Assembly: GCA_000165345.1 (NCBI GenBank)
Contig: CM000434.1
Coordinates: forward strand, 384,001 to 448,000
Length of the DNA stretch: 64,000 nucleotides
Direction: 5' to 3'
Both the position numbers and the translations under genes were made by a program. Each line of letters opens with the position of its first letter. Within the stretch, counting starts at the first letter, position 1. The notes beneath the pieces were generated by a model. That model was not told where the DNA came from. It ran no database searches and worked only from the letters and a program-made list of their open reading frames with translations. Below, piece after piece: positions 49,925 to 52,693 of this stretch.

Positions 49925-50269
49925 ATGTTGAAAATATTAGGCTTTTTGATGGCATGCTTCCAGCAAAGCAATAACCAGTATTACAAAGATGATAAATTCA
50001 AAGATTGTAGCGATTCAAATTCGCTTGTGAAGTATACATCAATTGGAATAAAAATAATAGTATATTCAATTTCATGGATAATGGTGTTAATATGGGATGC
50101 TTATGAATATGGGATGGTTTTTTATGGGCTAATATTGAGTATTTATATCTTGAAATATTACTCAAAATACTCATGTTTAAGATGTGTATTTGAAGAGATT
50201 TTTAAAAAACAAATACTGAAACATATATTCCCAAAAAGTTTAAACAAAATAGTAGAATGGCAATCTTAA
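49925..50269 (+). CDS. Possible small two-TM protein (114 aa), uncertain
   Basis: ORF with two hydrophobic segments, ending 39 bp before the SRP19 ATG. No homolog recognised. Could be a chance ORF in AT-rich DNA. Confidence 0.25.
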   Translation: MLKILGFLMACFQQSNNQYYKDDKFKDCSDSNSLVKYTSIGIKIIVYSISWIMVLIWDAYEYGMVFYGLILSIYILKYYSKYSCLRCVFEEIFKKQILKHIFPKSLNKIVEWQS

Positions 50270-50308: not shown

Positions 50309-50821
50309 ATGAACAAGGAACGAACACAAGCGGATCAAGATACTTCAAAGTGGAAGATTATTTACCCTTCATACTTAAATAGTAATAATACAAAGTCCAG
50401 TGGTAGATTATCTTCTCTAATTCATTGTGTAGAAGATCCAACTATTGCAGAAATAGCAGAAGTATGCATCCAATTGGGAATACCTTGTAAGGTTGAGAGC
50501 AAAAGATATTCAAAGGACTGCCGAACTCTTGGAAGAGTTAGGTTTCAACTTTTTGATGAAAGTGGGAGGGCTTTTAATGATAGAATTTTGACAAAAAAAA
50601 TTCTACTCAATCAAATTGGTATAATGATACCAAAATTAAAAAATAGACAAAATACTACATCATCTGTTATTGATCATGCGAATTCAAGAAATAATAAGGC
50701 AAATATTGATGACATTCATAATGAAAATAATTGCAAAATTAAGGAAACAGACTCGATAACTTATAGCGGTGTAAACATACATTCCAGCAATGCAAAGAGC
50801 AATTCAAAAAAAAAGAAATAA
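50309..50821 (+). CDS. SRP19: Signal recognition particle 19 kDa protein (SRP19)
   Basis: KWKIIYPSYLNSNNTKSSGRLSSLIHCVEDPTIAEIAEVCIQLGIPCKVESKRYSKDCRTLGRVRFQLFDESG...IMIPKLKNRQN aligns with human SRP19 RFICIYPAYLNNKKTIAEGRRIPISKAVENPTATEIQDVCSAVGLNVFLEKNKMYSREWNRDVQYRGRVRVQLKQEDG...AEMIPKLKTRTQ. Confidence 0.85.
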   Translation: MNKERTQADQDTSKWKIIYPSYLNSNNTKSSGRLSSLIHCVEDPTIAEIAEVCIQLGIPCKVESKRYSKDCRTLGRVRFQLFDESGRAFNDRILTKKILLNQIGIMIPKLKNRQNTTSSVIDHANSRNNKANIDDIHNENNCKIKETDSITYSGVNIHSSNAKSNSKKKK

Positions 50822-50938: not shown

Positions 50939-51793
50939 TTAATTGTAGTTTTTTTGAAATTGATCATAGCTTAAAATTGAAACCAAGAACTGCTGGTTCA
51001 TCAGATCTGTCTCATCTTTCTTGCCTGTTCCACAGAGTTGTTTTTTGTCTCCTTGCCAAATAATAGTATGCAAAGAATTAATAACGAGCTTTTCTTCTTC
51101 GTATTTTTGATATATTATAGTATTGCTATCAGGCGAAATATACCTAGTCGTAAGTAAAATTATGTAATCCCATTTGTAATACTCTCTTTCTTTATTTGGA
51201 ATATCAGTATATAAGTTATCTATCGTCCACTGTATATCGTCTTTTAAACAATTACAAAGGGCAGGAACTATTTCAAGGGGAGTATTTGGAAATCTTTCAT
51301 TAACCATCAATCCAACATTTTTCTCATATATAACGGAATTAAACAGATTTTCAAATTCTTTGTTGCGACTTTTCGAAATAACTCCACTTAAATAGTCAAC
51401 AATTTTATTTAAAGTTTCTTTGTATTGACGAAAGTTCAGAATTGTAGAAAATGCAATAATACTGTCAGAAATAGAAACTGTAGTTCCTATATTACCTTGA
51501 TTACAAATCAAATCAACAAATTCATGAAATTGAATGCCCTTAATTCGAGAATATTGCGACATTAGTAAAATGTTCTTTATGCTATGGTAATCATTTTCAT
51601 TAGGGTCGTTAAATTCAAATTCTCCATCAATAACAGATTCATTATCACTAGAGTCTGAATCAGTTCTTTTAGCTTTCTTTCCGTAAGATGGGCTTTCAGT
51701 TGCTGACAAAAAAATTTCTCCATCTATAGATTCATTGTTGAAGTTTAATTGGTTAGATTCATCATCAACTCGAATATGTTTTTTTGAGCTCAT
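50939..51793 (-). CDS. BCCIP: BCCIP/Bcp1-family protein
   Basis: VIDGEFEFNDPNENDYHSIKNILL...GLMVNERFPNTPLEIVPALCNCLKDDI...KWDYIILLT parallels BCCIP (IDVDFEAYSISDNDYDGIKKLLQQL...GLLLSERFINVPPQIALPMYQQLQKEL...KCYFYLLISKT). ORF-track start 51820 is TTG; the first ATG is at 51793. Confidence 0.7.
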   Translation of the reverse strand: MSSKKHIRVDDESNQLNFNNESIDGEIFLSATESPSYGKKAKRTDSDSSDNESVIDGEFEFNDPNENDYHSIKNILLMSQYSRIKGIQFHEFVDLICNQGNIGTTVSISDSIIAFSTILNFRQYKETLNKIVDYLSGVISKSRNKEFENLFNSVIYEKNVGLMVNERFPNTPLEIVPALCNCLKDDIQWTIDNLYTDIPNKEREYYKWDYIILLTTRYISPDSNTIIYQKYEEEKLVINSLHTIIWQGDKKQLCGTGKKDETDLMNQQFLVSILSYDQFQKNYN

Positions 51794-52046
51794 AATAAAT
51801 TTGATAATATGTATATTCAAAAATCAGTTATTAATAAAGAAGAGCTATATCTATAATTTATTTCGAAATAAATTTAAATCAAAAAAGACTAAACAACTAA
51901 CCGCGCCTTCTTTGATATACTTTGAAAAGTAATTTTGACCAAAAACTTAATTGAATTATCAAAACTAACGATATAAATTAACATTATGTTGTGTAGATAA
52001 TAATTTAACACAAGAATAATTGCAAGTTAAAAAAGAGCAAACGTTG

Positions 52047-52057
52047 TTGGCGCGAAA
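52047..52057. promoter_or_regulatory. Consensus E2F-type site TTGGCGCGAAA in the divergent promoter between BCCIP and the downstream small gene (a second CCGCGCCTT at 51901-51909)
   Basis: Exact TTTSGCGCSAA-type match seen 33 bp upstream of the ATG at 52090. Confidence 0.4.
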
Positions 52058-52089
52058 TCAACAGATTTATTTAGCAAAATCATTTTAAA

Positions 52090-52487
52090 ATGGATTCTAA
52101 AGGAAAAAAAAACCTACGCTCAAGTAATGGCGACCGTAAGAAAAATGCGGTCGCAAGAGCTACTGGAGAAATGAATAAAATATTTGAAACTATACTCAAT
52201 AAGAAAGCAACTCTCAAAGCTAATTCAAGAGCGCAAAAAGAGAAGAATAAACTGGCAAAACGAACAAAAAAAGACAGTGTAATTAGAGATAATACAAATA
52301 AGAGCTTGGATATTAATTATGGCTATATTAAACCTATAAGATATCTTAATGATGGGCTACCAGTTTATAGATTGGAAGATATTAATCTAGGTAAGTAAAA
52401 CCGCATAATAGCCCGGACGATTAATTCTCAATAGGTGATGGAGGAGGCACGCCTGACTGTCCATTTGATTGCAACTGCTGTTTCTAA
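52090..52487 (+). CDS. Small Lys-rich basic protein with a putative spliced Cys-rich C-terminus (...EDINLG|DGGGTPDCPFDCNCCF); exon 1 52090-52390, intron 52391-52434 (44 nt), exon 2 52435-52487
   Basis: ORF 52090-52398 ends in GGTAAGTAA, where GTAAGT is a canonical donor. A 44-nt intron ending CAATAG fits the window's intron length class and extends the protein by 17 aa with four Cys. The unspliced reading ends ...LGK instead. No family recognised. Confidence 0.4.
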
Positions 52488-52684
52488 TTCTTTGAGGGTA
52501 AGTGTTAATCACACGCTTGTAGATAAATTGGAAAATGGATAAGCTTTTTTCAACAGTTATCTTTCAAAAAAATAGCAAATAATTAAAATGTTAATTTATT
52601 ATCAATTTAATTGTTAATTTGGCTACATTTTTTGCATATCTTTTTTCAAAAGTTTAAGGTTTAAATTGTATGCAAATTTGTTCG

Positions 52685-52693
52685 CCCCCCCCC
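52685..52693. repeat. C9 homopolymer inside a short GC-rich island (TTCGCCCCCCCCCGCAAAATCCGTACTCCCCAC) in an otherwise AT-rich spacer upstream of the kinesin gene
   Basis: Seen directly. Unusual composition for this genome. Confidence 0.8.

What the first reader, a model, noticed from the sequence alone, without database searches (positions are those of the whole stretch)
52090..52560. Small Lys-rich protein with an intron-encoded Cys-rich tail (CPFDCNCCF); alternatively a short non-coding element
ORF 52090-52398 ends exactly at GGTAAGTAA. A 44-nt intron ending CAATAG continues the frame into DGGGTPDCPFDCNCCF*, giving four Cys in the last 10 residues. This segment (52435-52500) is much more GC-rich than its surroundings and is followed by a T6 run at ~52545. 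I could not place the protein in a known family. The Cys tail could be a metal-binding or lipidation motif.
Basis: inference. Interest (0 to 1): 0.55.

Follow-up and report, generated by a model that had tools for sequence, protein, structure and literature searches.

The report
Two-exon DUF1764 gene, conserved Cys tail
This is a real, already annotated Cryptosporidium parvum gene for a small basic protein of the widespread but uncharacterised DUF1764 family, and the 44-base intron must be spliced out to add the four-cysteine tail that defines that family.

Summary
Exon 1 is 52090-52390, the intron is 52391-52434 (44 nt, GTAAGT...AATAG, phase 1) and exon 2 is 52435-52487. The spliced product ends ...EDINLGDGGGTPDCPFDCNCCF.

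The window is C. parvum chromosome 6. The exact 117-aa protein is already deposited (QOY41069.1 / CPATCC_0013390, CPHLJ_6g1890). The unspliced 102-aa reading is the old Iowa II model XP_001388317.1.

The spliced protein matches Pfam PF08576 (DUF1764) end to end at 75.5 bits. The unspliced ORF scores 31.6 bits and lacks the last 17 profile positions. The intron sits at the same codon and phase in nine Cryptosporidium genomes of eight species or lineages, window included, and in Hepatocystis. Exon 2 shows mainly synonymous change.

Of 149 family representatives, 148 carry C-P-F-D-C-x-C-C-[F/Y], and 145 carry it at the exact C-terminus.

The non-coding alternative is rejected: Rfam finds nothing at threshold and the RNA fold z-score is -0.43.

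Function is unknown. I found no solved relative, no second domain and no literature. My best inference, at about 0.35, is a metal-thiolate centre formed by the tail, probably with a partner or as a dimer, attached to a basic helical region.

Already known; low interest. The useful by-product is a set of mis-modelled orthologues in public annotations.

The parts
52090..52390 (+). Exon 1 of the DUF1764 gene. It encodes M1 to L100 plus the first base of the Gly101 codon. The product has a Lys-rich basic N-terminal part and the start of the conserved C-terminal module.
   Evidence: ORF; splice computation; Pfam PF08576. The N-terminus MDSKGKKNL... is conserved in C. hominis, C. meleagridis, C. tyzzeri, chipmunk genotype I and C. 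ubiquitum.
52168..52185 (+). Codons E27-F32 (EMNKIF). This is the Cryptosporidium form of the family's N-terminal E-I-D-D-L-F motif and lies in the most confident predicted helix.
   Evidence: The motif is found in 109 of 137 family members of at least 100 aa. F32 is nearly invariant in alignments A3 and A6. Residues 21-40 have pLDDT about 92.
52354..52368 (+). Codons G89-Y93 (GLPVY), the core of the conserved C-terminal module, in a predicted small beta-hairpin.
   Evidence: In the family, Gly at -29 is 0.97 conserved and Tyr at -25 is 0.97 conserved. G89 is invariant in A3 and A6. The hairpin 84-85/91-92 has pLDDT about 89.
52391..52434 (+). Spliceosomal intron of 44 nt, phase 1, inside the Gly101 codon. 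It has a GTAAGT donor, a TTAAT branch-like element about 10 nt upstream of the acceptor, and an AATAG acceptor.
   Evidence: The donor GGTAAGT, the TAA of the branch-like element and the AG|GT acceptor are invariant in six intestinal-clade sequences. The rest of the intron diverges (41-95% identity) and its length varies (44, 45 or 79 nt). The position and phase are the same in Hepatocystis, where the intron is 169 nt.
52435..52487 (+). Exon 2 (53 nt). It holds the last two bases of Gly101, D102 to F117, and the stop TAA at 52485-52487. It encodes the Gly linker GDGGGT and the Cys tail.
   Evidence: Its length is fixed at 53 nt in all eight Cryptosporidium sequences compared, at 75-100% identity. 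Changes are mostly at third codon positions, and all four Cys codons alternate between TGC and TGT.
52458..52484 (+). Codons C109-F117 (CPFDCNCCF), the family-defining C-x3-C-x-C-C-aromatic C-terminus.
   Evidence: Present in 148 of 149 family representatives and at the exact C-terminus in 145. All four Cys are 100% conserved; P at -8 is 1.00, F at -7 is 0.99, D at -6 is 0.98 and F at -1 is 0.96.
52047..52057 (.). TTGGCGCGAAA, a G/C box about 41 nt upstream of the ATG in the 269-bp region shared with the divergent BCCIP gene. It is a candidate E2F-type promoter element. The assignment to the gene is inferred.
   Evidence: Seen. A similar box lies at -41 to -47 in C. ubiquitum and the Logan species, and degenerate copies occur in C. 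hominis, C. meleagridis and chipmunk genotype I. The E2F reading rests on my own recollection of Cryptosporidium promoter-motif studies and was not tested.

Best explanation
SHOWN. This is the Cryptosporidium parvum chromosome 6 orthologue of the eukaryotic DUF1764 family (Pfam PF08576). It is a two-exon gene. A 44-nt phase-1 intron (52391-52434) has to be removed to join exon 1 (52090-52390) to a 53-nt terminal exon (52435-52487). The 117-aa product has three parts:
- a strongly basic N-terminal half, predicted as one long helix, that carries the family's EIDDLF-type motif;
- a short conserved module (R..D..GLPVY....L.G);
- an invariant Gly-rich linker (G-x-G-G-G-T) followed by C-P-F-D-C-x-C-C-F at the free C-terminus.
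The unspliced 102-aa reading (...LGK) lacks the family's defining element. It is an annotation artefact that persists in several public genomes.

INFERRED (about 0.35 for this sub-claim). The four invariant cysteines are normally the only cysteines in the protein. I propose they form a metal-thiolate centre (zinc, or an Fe-S or Cu(I)-type cluster). It probably forms only together with a second chain or a partner protein. The basic helix would provide nucleic-acid or partner binding. On this view the protein is a small soluble adaptor or cofactor-carrying factor with a housekeeping role, not a membrane protein.
For: Gene structure and family membership:
- Pfam gives 75.5 bits spliced, against 31.6 bits unspliced, and the tail alone supplies profile positions 84-100.
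- The identical 117-aa protein is deposited for C. parvum as QOY41069.1/CPATCC_0013390, WKS78298.1, WRK32788.1 and KAL5368062.1.
- That annotation's authors state that its introns are 100% supported by RNA-seq (PMC8744675).
- The neighbouring kinesin is 100% identical to C. parvum XP_001388318.1.
- The intron is at the same codon and phase in C. hominis, C. meleagridis, chipmunk genotype I, C. ubiquitum, a Logan-assembled species, C. muris and C. serpentis and in Hepatocystis.
- Exon 2 is constant in length and changes mostly synonymously, while the intron diverges and changes length.
- The tail motif is present in 148 of 149 representatives, 145 of them at the exact C-terminus.

Mechanism:
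- The median number of Cys outside the tail is 0.
- Spacing is strictly invariant, as are P, F and D between the cysteines and the terminal aromatic residue. That degree of constraint fits a defined three-dimensional centre or a specific recognition event.
- Cys-Pro at the start of a metal knuckle, and a vicinal Cys-Cys pair bound to one Zn (RPB10, CX2CXnCC), both have precedents. This is my own knowledge and was not tested here.
- The protein has pI 9.7. Residues 1-70 have pI 10.7 with 21 Lys/Arg.
- AF2 predicts a long helix and no hydrophobic segment.
- The family is retained in very reduced parasites: Cryptosporidium and the microsporidian Conglomerata.
Against: - No experiment or paper bears on function. 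'DUF1764' occurs in one paper, only in a gene list. PF08576, IPR013885, the motif string and the gene IDs give nothing relevant.
- AF2 leaves the tail unfolded (pLDDT about 56-65) even with 143 sequences. Self-contained zinc knuckles are usually modelled confidently, so an intramolecular Zn(Cys)4 knuckle is not favoured.
- Four ligands within eight residues is unusually compact for a mononuclear site.
- No solved structure or other Pfam family resembles the module.
- RNA-seq support for this particular junction is indirect. It rests on a general statement by the annotation's authors, not on reads that I saw.
Confidence: 0.85

Rival explanations
1. The tail is a lipidation signal. The clustered cysteines are S-acylated, or non-canonically prenylated (a Rab-like XCCX ending), and anchor the small basic protein to a membrane.
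For: A Cys cluster sits at the extreme C-terminus with a hydrophobic last residue, and its position at the free end is strictly kept in 145 of 148 members. AF2 leaves the tail flexible. Polybasic regions often cooperate with lipid anchors (general knowledge).
Against: There is no CaaX box. Position -4 is D, N, S or another residue, and never Cys, in all 148 tails. Rab geranylgeranylation needs a Rab GTPase fold bound to REP, and none is present, since PF08576 is the only domain. S-acylation sites rarely show such strict invariance of spacing and of the intervening P-F-D. Acidic residues flank the cysteines. The basic region lies far from the tail and looks like a nucleic-acid-binding helix.
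Confidence: 0.15
2. The tail is a flexible redox or metal-transfer 'swinging arm'. A vicinal dithiol on a Gly-rich linker would shuttle electrons, sulfur or a soft metal ion to a partner, like the C-terminal Cys pairs of mercuric reductase or thioredoxin reductases.
For: The invariant Gly-rich linker G-x-G-G-G-T directly precedes the Cys tail, and the CC pair is invariant. The tail has low predicted order. The analogy to MerA and TrxR tails is from my own knowledge.
Against: In the known examples the arm belongs to a large enzyme with its own redox centre. Here there is no catalytic domain at all. No partner is known. The hypothesis overlaps with the best explanation and cannot be separated from it in silico.
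Confidence: 0.15
3. The unspliced 102-aa protein ending ...LGK, as in the Iowa II, TU502, C. tyzzeri, C. ubiquitum and chipmunk genotype I annotations, is the true or main product, and the downstream Cys-coding stretch is fortuitous.
For: Several deposited models have this form. The unspliced ORF still passes the Pfam threshold weakly, at 31.6 bits against a cut-off of 27.
Against: The tail is the most conserved part of the whole family. It is conserved in frame behind the intron in every Cryptosporidium genome examined, with synonymous substitutions. The spliced model is the one in the RNA-seq-based annotation.
Confidence: 0.02
4. The segment 52435-52560 is a short non-coding RNA or regulatory element, not coding sequence.
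For: There is a local GC rise. Two very weak C/D-box snoRNA-like Rfam matches lie nearby, at 24.3 and 21.8 bits against gathering scores of 50.
Against: No Rfam family reaches threshold anywhere in the window. The fold energy is no better than shuffles, z = -0.43. There is no tRNA. The substitution pattern is codon-like. Conservation drops immediately after the stop codon, to 50-86% identity.
Confidence: 0.01

Closest known systems
Pfam PF08576 / InterPro IPR013885, 'Eukaryotic protein of unknown function (DUF1764)'
   Same: Full-length match to the profile (75.5 bits, positions 7-100 of 100). It shares the Lys-rich N-terminus, the EIDDLF-type motif, the GLPVY block, the GxGGGT linker and the CPFDCxCC[F/Y] C-terminus.
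   Different: Nothing essential. The Cryptosporidium proteins are short (116-117 aa against a family median of 150). They belong to the 'short' variant of the C-terminal module, which lacks the IISPEAPLERID extension and has D/E instead of L at -10. Their N-terminal motif is degenerate (EMNKIF).
C. parvum CPATCC_0013390 (QOY41069.1) and CPHLJ_6g1890, and C. hominis CUV06614.1 'DUF1764 domain-containing protein'
   Same: Identical 117-aa sequence for the C. parvum entries. The C. hominis entry has the same gene structure.
   Different: None. This is the same gene. The older model XP_001388317.1/EAZ51511.1/CAD98480.1 (102 aa) is the unspliced version.
RNA polymerase subunit RPB10/RpoN zinc site (CX2CXnCC). 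From my own knowledge, not tested.
   Same: It is a precedent for a vicinal Cys-Cys pair taking part in a Cys4 zinc site.
   Different: In RPB10 the two halves are about 30 residues apart inside a folded helical bundle. Here all four Cys lie within eight residues at a flexible C-terminus. There is no sequence or fold similarity.
Rab-type C-terminal CC/CXC/XCCX geranylgeranylation motifs and CaaX boxes. From my own knowledge.
   Same: Cysteines in the last five residues, and an XCCX-like ending (NCCF).
   Different: There is no GTPase domain and no Cys at -4, so it is neither a Rab nor a CaaX substrate by definition.
Radical-SAM CX3CX2C cluster-binding motif. From my own knowledge.
   Same: C109, C113 and C116 reproduce the CX3CX2C spacing.
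   Different: There is no radical-SAM core domain. The residue before the third Cys is itself Cys, not the usual aromatic. The protein is far too small.

Membership tests
Pfam PF08576 (DUF1764) | Whole-protein score at or above the curated gathering threshold (27 bits), covering the full profile | tested here: met
   75.5 bits, E = 6.3e-21, protein residues 24-117 on profile positions 7-100 of 100.
Pfam PF08576 (DUF1764) | C-P-F-D-C-x-C-C-[F/Y] at the exact C-terminus | tested here: met
   The window protein ends CPFDCNCCF then stop. In the family the motif is in 148 of 149 representatives, 145 of them terminal.
Pfam PF08576 (DUF1764) | Gly-rich linker G-x-G-G-G-T immediately before the Cys tail | tested here: met
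   G101-D-G-G-G-T106. Family frequencies are 0.90-0.99.
Pfam PF08576 (DUF1764) | Conserved R..D..G-L-P-V-Y....L block upstream of the linker | tested here: met
   R84, D88, G89-L-P-V-Y93 and L98 align to invariant or nearly invariant columns.
Pfam PF08576 (DUF1764) | N-terminal acidic-aliphatic-aromatic motif (E-I-D-D-L-F) within a Lys-rich region | tested here: met
   Present in degenerate form, E27-M-N-K-I-F32. F32 falls in the nearly invariant Phe column. Residues 1-70 contain 21 Lys/Arg.
CaaX prenylation substrates | Cysteine at position -4 from the C-terminus, followed by two aliphatic residues and X | tested here: not met
   Position -4 is Asn in the window protein. It is D, N, S or another residue, never Cys, in 148 family tails.
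Rab GTPases (CC/CXC geranylgeranylation) | Small-GTPase domain recognised by REP, in addition to the C-terminal Cys motif | tested here: not met
   PF08576 is the only significant Pfam family for the window protein and the only one shared by the 35 long relatives; their few other matches are weak hits to unrelated families, none a GTPase.
Radical SAM superfamily | Radical-SAM core domain carrying the CX3CX2C motif | tested here: not met
   The spacing C109-x3-C113-x2-C116 is present, but there is no PF04055 or any other domain hit. The protein is 117 aa.
C/D-box snoRNA (Rfam SNORD47, SNORD28) | Score at or above the Rfam gathering threshold (50 bits) | tested here: not met
   24.3 and 21.8 bits. 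Nothing reaches threshold in the whole window.
LYAR / yeast YCR087C-A | Orthology to the LYAR-type zinc-finger nucleolar proteins | tested here: not met
   I had recalled YCR087C-A as a DUF1764 member. PMC2387231 identifies it as the LYAR orthologue, and the window protein hits only PF08576. The lead was dropped.
Structural Zn(Cys)4 knuckle (generic) | Stoichiometric metal bound by the four cysteines | not testable with these tools
   Needs metal analysis of purified protein. AF2 gives only low confidence for the tail.

The most novel reading that the evidence does not exclude
The G-x-G-G-G-T / C-x3-C-x-C-C-aromatic free C-terminus of DUF1764 proteins would be an undescribed cofactor-binding or post-translational-modification module. 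One possibility is an intermolecular metal or Fe-S bridging site. Another is a new C-terminal recognition signal. It would belong to a housekeeping factor that is kept from plants and fungi down to the most reduced parasites (Cryptosporidium, microsporidia) and that was not seen among the named animal or budding-yeast sequences here. Standard C-terminal tagging in localisation screens would mask it.
Probability: 0.3. Interest if true: 0.55.

Novelty: already known. Interest (0 to 1): 0.2.

Why it matters
For this window it matters little. The gene, its intron and its family are already in public databases. There are two practical points.

1. Mis-modelled orthologues. Many public Cryptosporidium annotations still carry a truncated or chimeric model that lacks the only strongly conserved part of the protein:
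- C. parvum Iowa II XP_001388317.1
- C. hominis TU502 XP_666842.1
- C. hominis GY17_00000193
- C. tyzzeri TRY51216.1
- C. ubiquitum cubi_02313
- chipmunk genotype I ELE39_002335
- the C. hominis DUF1764-kinesin fusions OLQ17594.1 and PPA64850.1
These distort orthology and 'species-specific gene' analyses.

2. An uncharacterised family with an accessible test. DUF1764 is a widely conserved eukaryotic family with a striking invariant four-Cys C-terminus and no functional data at all. Any study of it must keep the C-terminus free, so C-terminal epitope tagging, the usual approach in Cryptosporidium, would probably inactivate or mislocalise it.

Tried and rejected
- YCR087C-A. I recalled yeast YCR087C-A as a DUF1764 member with nucleolar localisation. 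The literature check showed it is the LYAR orthologue, so I dropped it.
- First homology search. One search missed the exact C. parvum protein. Its 90% cluster is represented by the neighbouring kinesin, because fused gene models link the two. The exact look-up recovered it.
- PDB by sequence. A single-sequence search, a full-length profile and a profile of the C-terminal module alone gave only non-significant Lys-rich low-complexity matches (eL19, eIF2-beta K-boxes, eL24) or noise.
- Foldseek against the PDB gave nothing with E below 5. The model is low-confidence, so this says little.
- Deeper AF2 alignment. A run with 143 sequences did not order the tail.
- Rosetta-stone test. 35 long family members have no second domain. 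One weak BUD22 hit is compositional.
- Literature. Searches for DUF1764, PF08576, IPR013885, the motif strings, cgd6_1890, CPATCC_0013390 and A3FPT8 found nothing on function.
- Alternative acceptors. AGs at 52443 and 52446 (53- and 56-nt introns) also keep the frame, but they delete part of the invariant GxGGGT linker. I rejected them in favour of the 44-nt intron.
- Non-coding alternative. Rfam, ARAGORN and RNA folding gave nothing.
- Print error. In one search the amino-acid percentages were printed 100-fold too high. The correct values are Lys 14.5% and Asn 11.1%.

Full report
**1. What is in the sequence**

The window is AT-rich (about 30% GC). It carries long eukaryote-style ORFs. Reading 51400-53200 and listing ORFs shows a 102-aa ORF at 52090-52398 that ends ...cta GGT AAG TAA.

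A script confirmed the following layout:
- Exon 1 is 52090-52390.
- The intron is 52391-52434, 44 nt: GTAAGTAAAACCGCATAATAGCCCGGACGATTAATTCTCAATAG.
- Exon 2 is 52435-52487, with the stop TAA at 52485-52487.

Removing the intron joins the frame to 53 further bases. It ends ...EDINLGDGGGTPDCPFDCNCCF.

Exon 2 is 49% GC against 24-29% in the flanks. That is the 99.3rd percentile of 53-nt windows. Gly, Cys, Pro and Thr codons explain it.

The T6 run at 52545-52550 is real but trivial. There are 123 T runs of six or more in the 64 kb.

**2. Which organism and which gene**

The spliced protein is 87% identical to a C. meleagridis protein named 'DUF1764 family protein'.

An exact-sequence look-up found both forms in public collections:
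- The 117-aa spliced form is C. parvum QOY41069.1 (CPATCC_0013390), WKS78298.1, WRK32788.1 and KAL5368062.1 (CPHLJ_6g1890).
- The 102-aa unspliced form is the older C. parvum Iowa II model XP_001388317.1 / EAZ51511.1 / CAD98480.1.

The downstream kinesin ORF (52868-55012) is 100% identical to C. parvum XP_001388318.1. The window is therefore C. parvum chromosome 6.

[quoted passage not shown] This is indirect support for this junction. I did not see the reads.

**3. Is the splice real? Homology evidence**

Against Pfam, the spliced protein scores 75.5 bits on PF08576 (DUF1764). It covers profile positions 7-100 of 100. The unspliced ORF scores 31.6 bits and stops at position 83. The 17 tail residues therefore add about 44 bits and complete the domain.

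**4. Is the splice real? Comparative evidence**

I fetched the orthologous loci from these genomes:
- chipmunk genotype I
- C. ubiquitum
- an unnamed species assembled from SRR31860986
- C. meleagridis (two assemblies)
- C. hominis
- C. muris
- C. serpentis

Synteny is the same in the intestinal-clade genomes: ANAPC10, SRP19, BCCIP on the minus strand, DUF1764, kinesin, chagasin-type inhibitor. The C. muris and C. serpentis loci show the same order from SRP19 onward, with no ANAPC10 called in the stretch fetched.

In every genome a GTAAG[T/C] donor (GTAAGC in C. serpentis, GTAAGT in the others) follows the first base of the Gly codon after ...ED[IL][NK][LI]. An intron of 44, 45 or 79 nt ends in AG. 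The next 53 nt encode G[DNQ]GGGT[PS][DE]CPF[DN]C[NSTE]CC[FY] and a stop.

Identity to the window, by segment:

| Segment | Identity to window | Length |
|---|---|---|
| Exon 2 | 75-100% | fixed at 53 nt |
| Intron | 41-95% | 44, 45 or 79 nt |
| 100 nt after the stop | 50-86% | not applicable |

All four Cys codons alternate between TGC and TGT. Three of the four Gly codons vary at the third position. This is the signature of selection on the protein.

An alignment of the six intestinal-clade introns shows three invariant elements in otherwise diverging sequence:
- the donor GGTAAGT
- the TAA of a TTAAY/CTAAT branch-like element about 10 nt before the acceptor
- the AG|GT acceptor

The Hepatocystis orthologue has only one possible GT...AG intron (169 nt). 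It lies at exactly the same codon and phase. The intron is probably old within Apicomplexa. An orchid orthologue has no intron, and Phytophthora sojae has introns elsewhere.

**5. The non-coding alternative**

- Rfam finds nothing at gathering thresholds anywhere in the window.
- A permissive scan of 51800-52900 gives only two snoRNA-like matches, at 24 and 22 bits against thresholds of 50.
- The RNA fold of 52435-52560 is no better than shuffles, z = -0.43.
- There are no tRNAs.

Together with the codon-like substitution pattern, this alternative is rejected.

**6. The family**

A profile search of 1.84 billion representatives found 568 relatives at E <= 1e-3. I examined 149 of them.
- 148 contain C-P-F-D-C-x-C-C-[F/Y].
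- 145 have it at the exact C-terminus.
- The four Cys and the Pro are 100% conserved.
- F at -7 is 0.99, D at -6 is 0.98 and the terminal F is 0.96 (Y in most of the rest).
- The motif is preceded by an almost invariant G-x-G-G-G-T.
- Further upstream lies R..D..G-L-P-V-Y....L.

A second conserved element, E-I-D-D-L-F, lies in the Lys-rich N-terminal part. It occurs in 109 of 137 members. In the window protein it is EMNKIF, residues 27-32.

Most members have no cysteine outside the tail. Median length is 150 aa and median pI is 9.1.

Named members come from the following groups:
- oomycetes
- Mucoromycota, Glomeromycota, Zoopagomycota and Basidiomycota
- a microsporidian (Conglomerata obtusa)
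- land plants, Chara and green algae
- a brown alga and a chrysophyte
- a ciliate
- Perkinsus, Chromera, Hepatocystis and Cryptosporidium

No animal or budding-yeast name appeared among those listed. This is an observation, not a formal absence test. Every name is 'DUF1764 domain-containing', 'hypothetical' or 'conserved, unknown function'.

**7. Attempts to get at function**

- No solved structure is related by sequence. A single-sequence search, a full-length profile and a profile of the C-terminal module alone all failed.
- No other Pfam family matches the module.
- 35 long members carry no second domain.
- AlphaFold2 with 46 and then 143 sequences gave low-confidence models, pTM 0.26 and 0.29.
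  - A long helix covers residues 13-60, and pLDDT reaches about 92 around the EIDDLF-type motif.
  - A small confident hairpin forms at 84-92.
  - The Cys tail stays unstructured, with pLDDT about 56-65.
- Foldseek against the PDB returned nothing meaningful.
- The literature holds nothing on function.
- My recollection that yeast YCR087C-A belongs here was wrong. It is the LYAR orthologue.

**8. Most likely mechanism (inference)**

The constraint on the tail is extreme. It covers four Cys, fixed spacing, the intervening P-F-D, an aromatic last residue, a free C-terminus and a preceding Gly loop. The rest of the protein has no other Cys.

I take this as pointing to a defined thiolate centre or a very specific recognition event. 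A generic lipidation patch would not need this much constraint.

AF2 does not fold the tail on its own, and four ligands in eight residues is very compact. I therefore favour, at about 0.35, a metal-thiolate centre that forms with a second chain or a partner protein. The metal could be Zn, or an Fe-S or Cu(I)-type cluster.

The basic helix (residues 1-70, pI 10.7) would bind nucleic acid or a partner.

Precedents from my own knowledge:
- vicinal Cys-Cys pairs in the Zn site of RPB10
- Cys-Pro knuckles in rubredoxin-type sites
- intermolecular Cys sites such as the Rad50 zinc hook

Rivals:
- Lipid anchor, 0.15. Canonical CaaX and Rab mechanisms are excluded, because there is never a Cys at -4 and there is no GTPase domain. 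S-acylation is not excluded.
- Flexible redox or metal-transfer arm, 0.15.

None of these can be separated without experiments.

**9. Verdict**

The gene model is already in the current C. parvum annotation, and the protein belongs to a Pfam family described long ago. The finding is 'already known'.

The residual value has two parts:
- a list of public orthologue models that are truncated or fused;
- the reminder that DUF1764 is a broadly conserved eukaryotic family with a remarkable invariant C-terminus and no functional data.

Noticed in passing
L006 (C. hominis) and the cluster; corresponds to window 52090-55012: Two C. hominis annotations (OLQ17594.1, PPA64850.1; 818 aa, P0159) splice the same GTAAGT donor past the 53-nt tail exon into the downstream kinesin (...EDINL|DLIIMSMENWQ...). 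The result is a chimeric DUF1764-kinesin protein. This chimera pulls the DUF1764 proteins and the kinesins into one 90% cluster whose representative is a kinesin, which is why the first homology search missed the exact C. parvum protein.
   Followed up: yes
Orthologues of window 52090-52487 in L001, L002, L003 and L006, and proteins P0155, P0162 and P0165: Truncated models that end ...LGK (or LGKCNDI), or that start at Met28, are deposited for C. parvum Iowa II, C. hominis TU502 and GY17, C. tyzzeri, C. ubiquitum, chipmunk genotype I and a Logan assembly. All of these genomes that I could examine encode the intron and the Cys tail.
   Followed up: yes
window 52047-52057 and 51902-51907: The G/C boxes TTGGCGCGAAA (41 nt upstream of the DUF1764 ATG) and CGCGCC (188 nt upstream) lie in the 269-bp AT-rich region between the divergent BCCIP-like gene (50939-51820, minus strand) and the DUF1764 gene. 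A similar box sits at -41 to -47 in C. ubiquitum and the Logan species. It resembles the E2F-type motif reported upstream of many Cryptosporidium genes (from memory).
   Followed up: partly
window 52685-52693: A run of nine C residues (gttcgCCCCCCCCCgcaaaa) lies in the AT-rich intergenic region between the DUF1764 stop and the kinesin start. This is unusual for a genome of about 30% GC.
   Followed up: no
L009 (Hepatocystis) 1501-2047: The Hepatocystis orthologue has a 169-nt intron at exactly the same codon and phase (phase 1 in the Gly codon 17 residues from the end) as all the Cryptosporidium species. An orchid orthologue (L010) has no intron, and Phytophthora sojae (L011) has three introns at other positions.
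   Followed up: partly
Family proteins P0006-P0154: The C-terminal module comes in two forms. The 'long' form is IISPEAPLERID..SGLPVYKAHLLKVGEGGGT.L-CPFDC.CCF. The 'short' form is R.Y.EDGLP[IV]Y..EEL.IG.GGGTP[DE]-CPFDC.CCF, and Cryptosporidium, Hepatocystis, Chromera and oomycetes belong to it. I did not resolve whether these are paralogues or lineage variants.
   Followed up: no
P0129 (Conglomerata obtusa, microsporidian) and P0126: A microsporidian keeps the family with a degenerate tail (CPLDCDCCH). One member of unknown origin (P0126, 180 aa) has what looks by eye like an N-terminal GATA-like C4 finger (CWRC...CNGC) ahead of the DUF1764 module. The Pfam scan at E <= 0.01 reported no such domain.
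   Followed up: no
window 52018-52096 (-) and 52460-52533 (+): Sub-threshold Rfam matches to the C/D-box snoRNA models SNORD47 (24.3 bits, E = 0.062) and SNORD28 (21.8 bits, E = 0.96), against gathering scores of 50. I treated them as noise.
   Followed up: partly
window 49925-50269, 50309-50821 and 50939-51820: Neighbouring genes identified by synteny with annotated relatives: a small 112-114-aa ORF without Pfam hits, SRP19 (PF01922, + strand) and a BCCIP-family protein (PF13862, - strand). The window ORF for BCCIP is listed from a TTG; the orthologues are 284-294 aa.
   Followed up: partly
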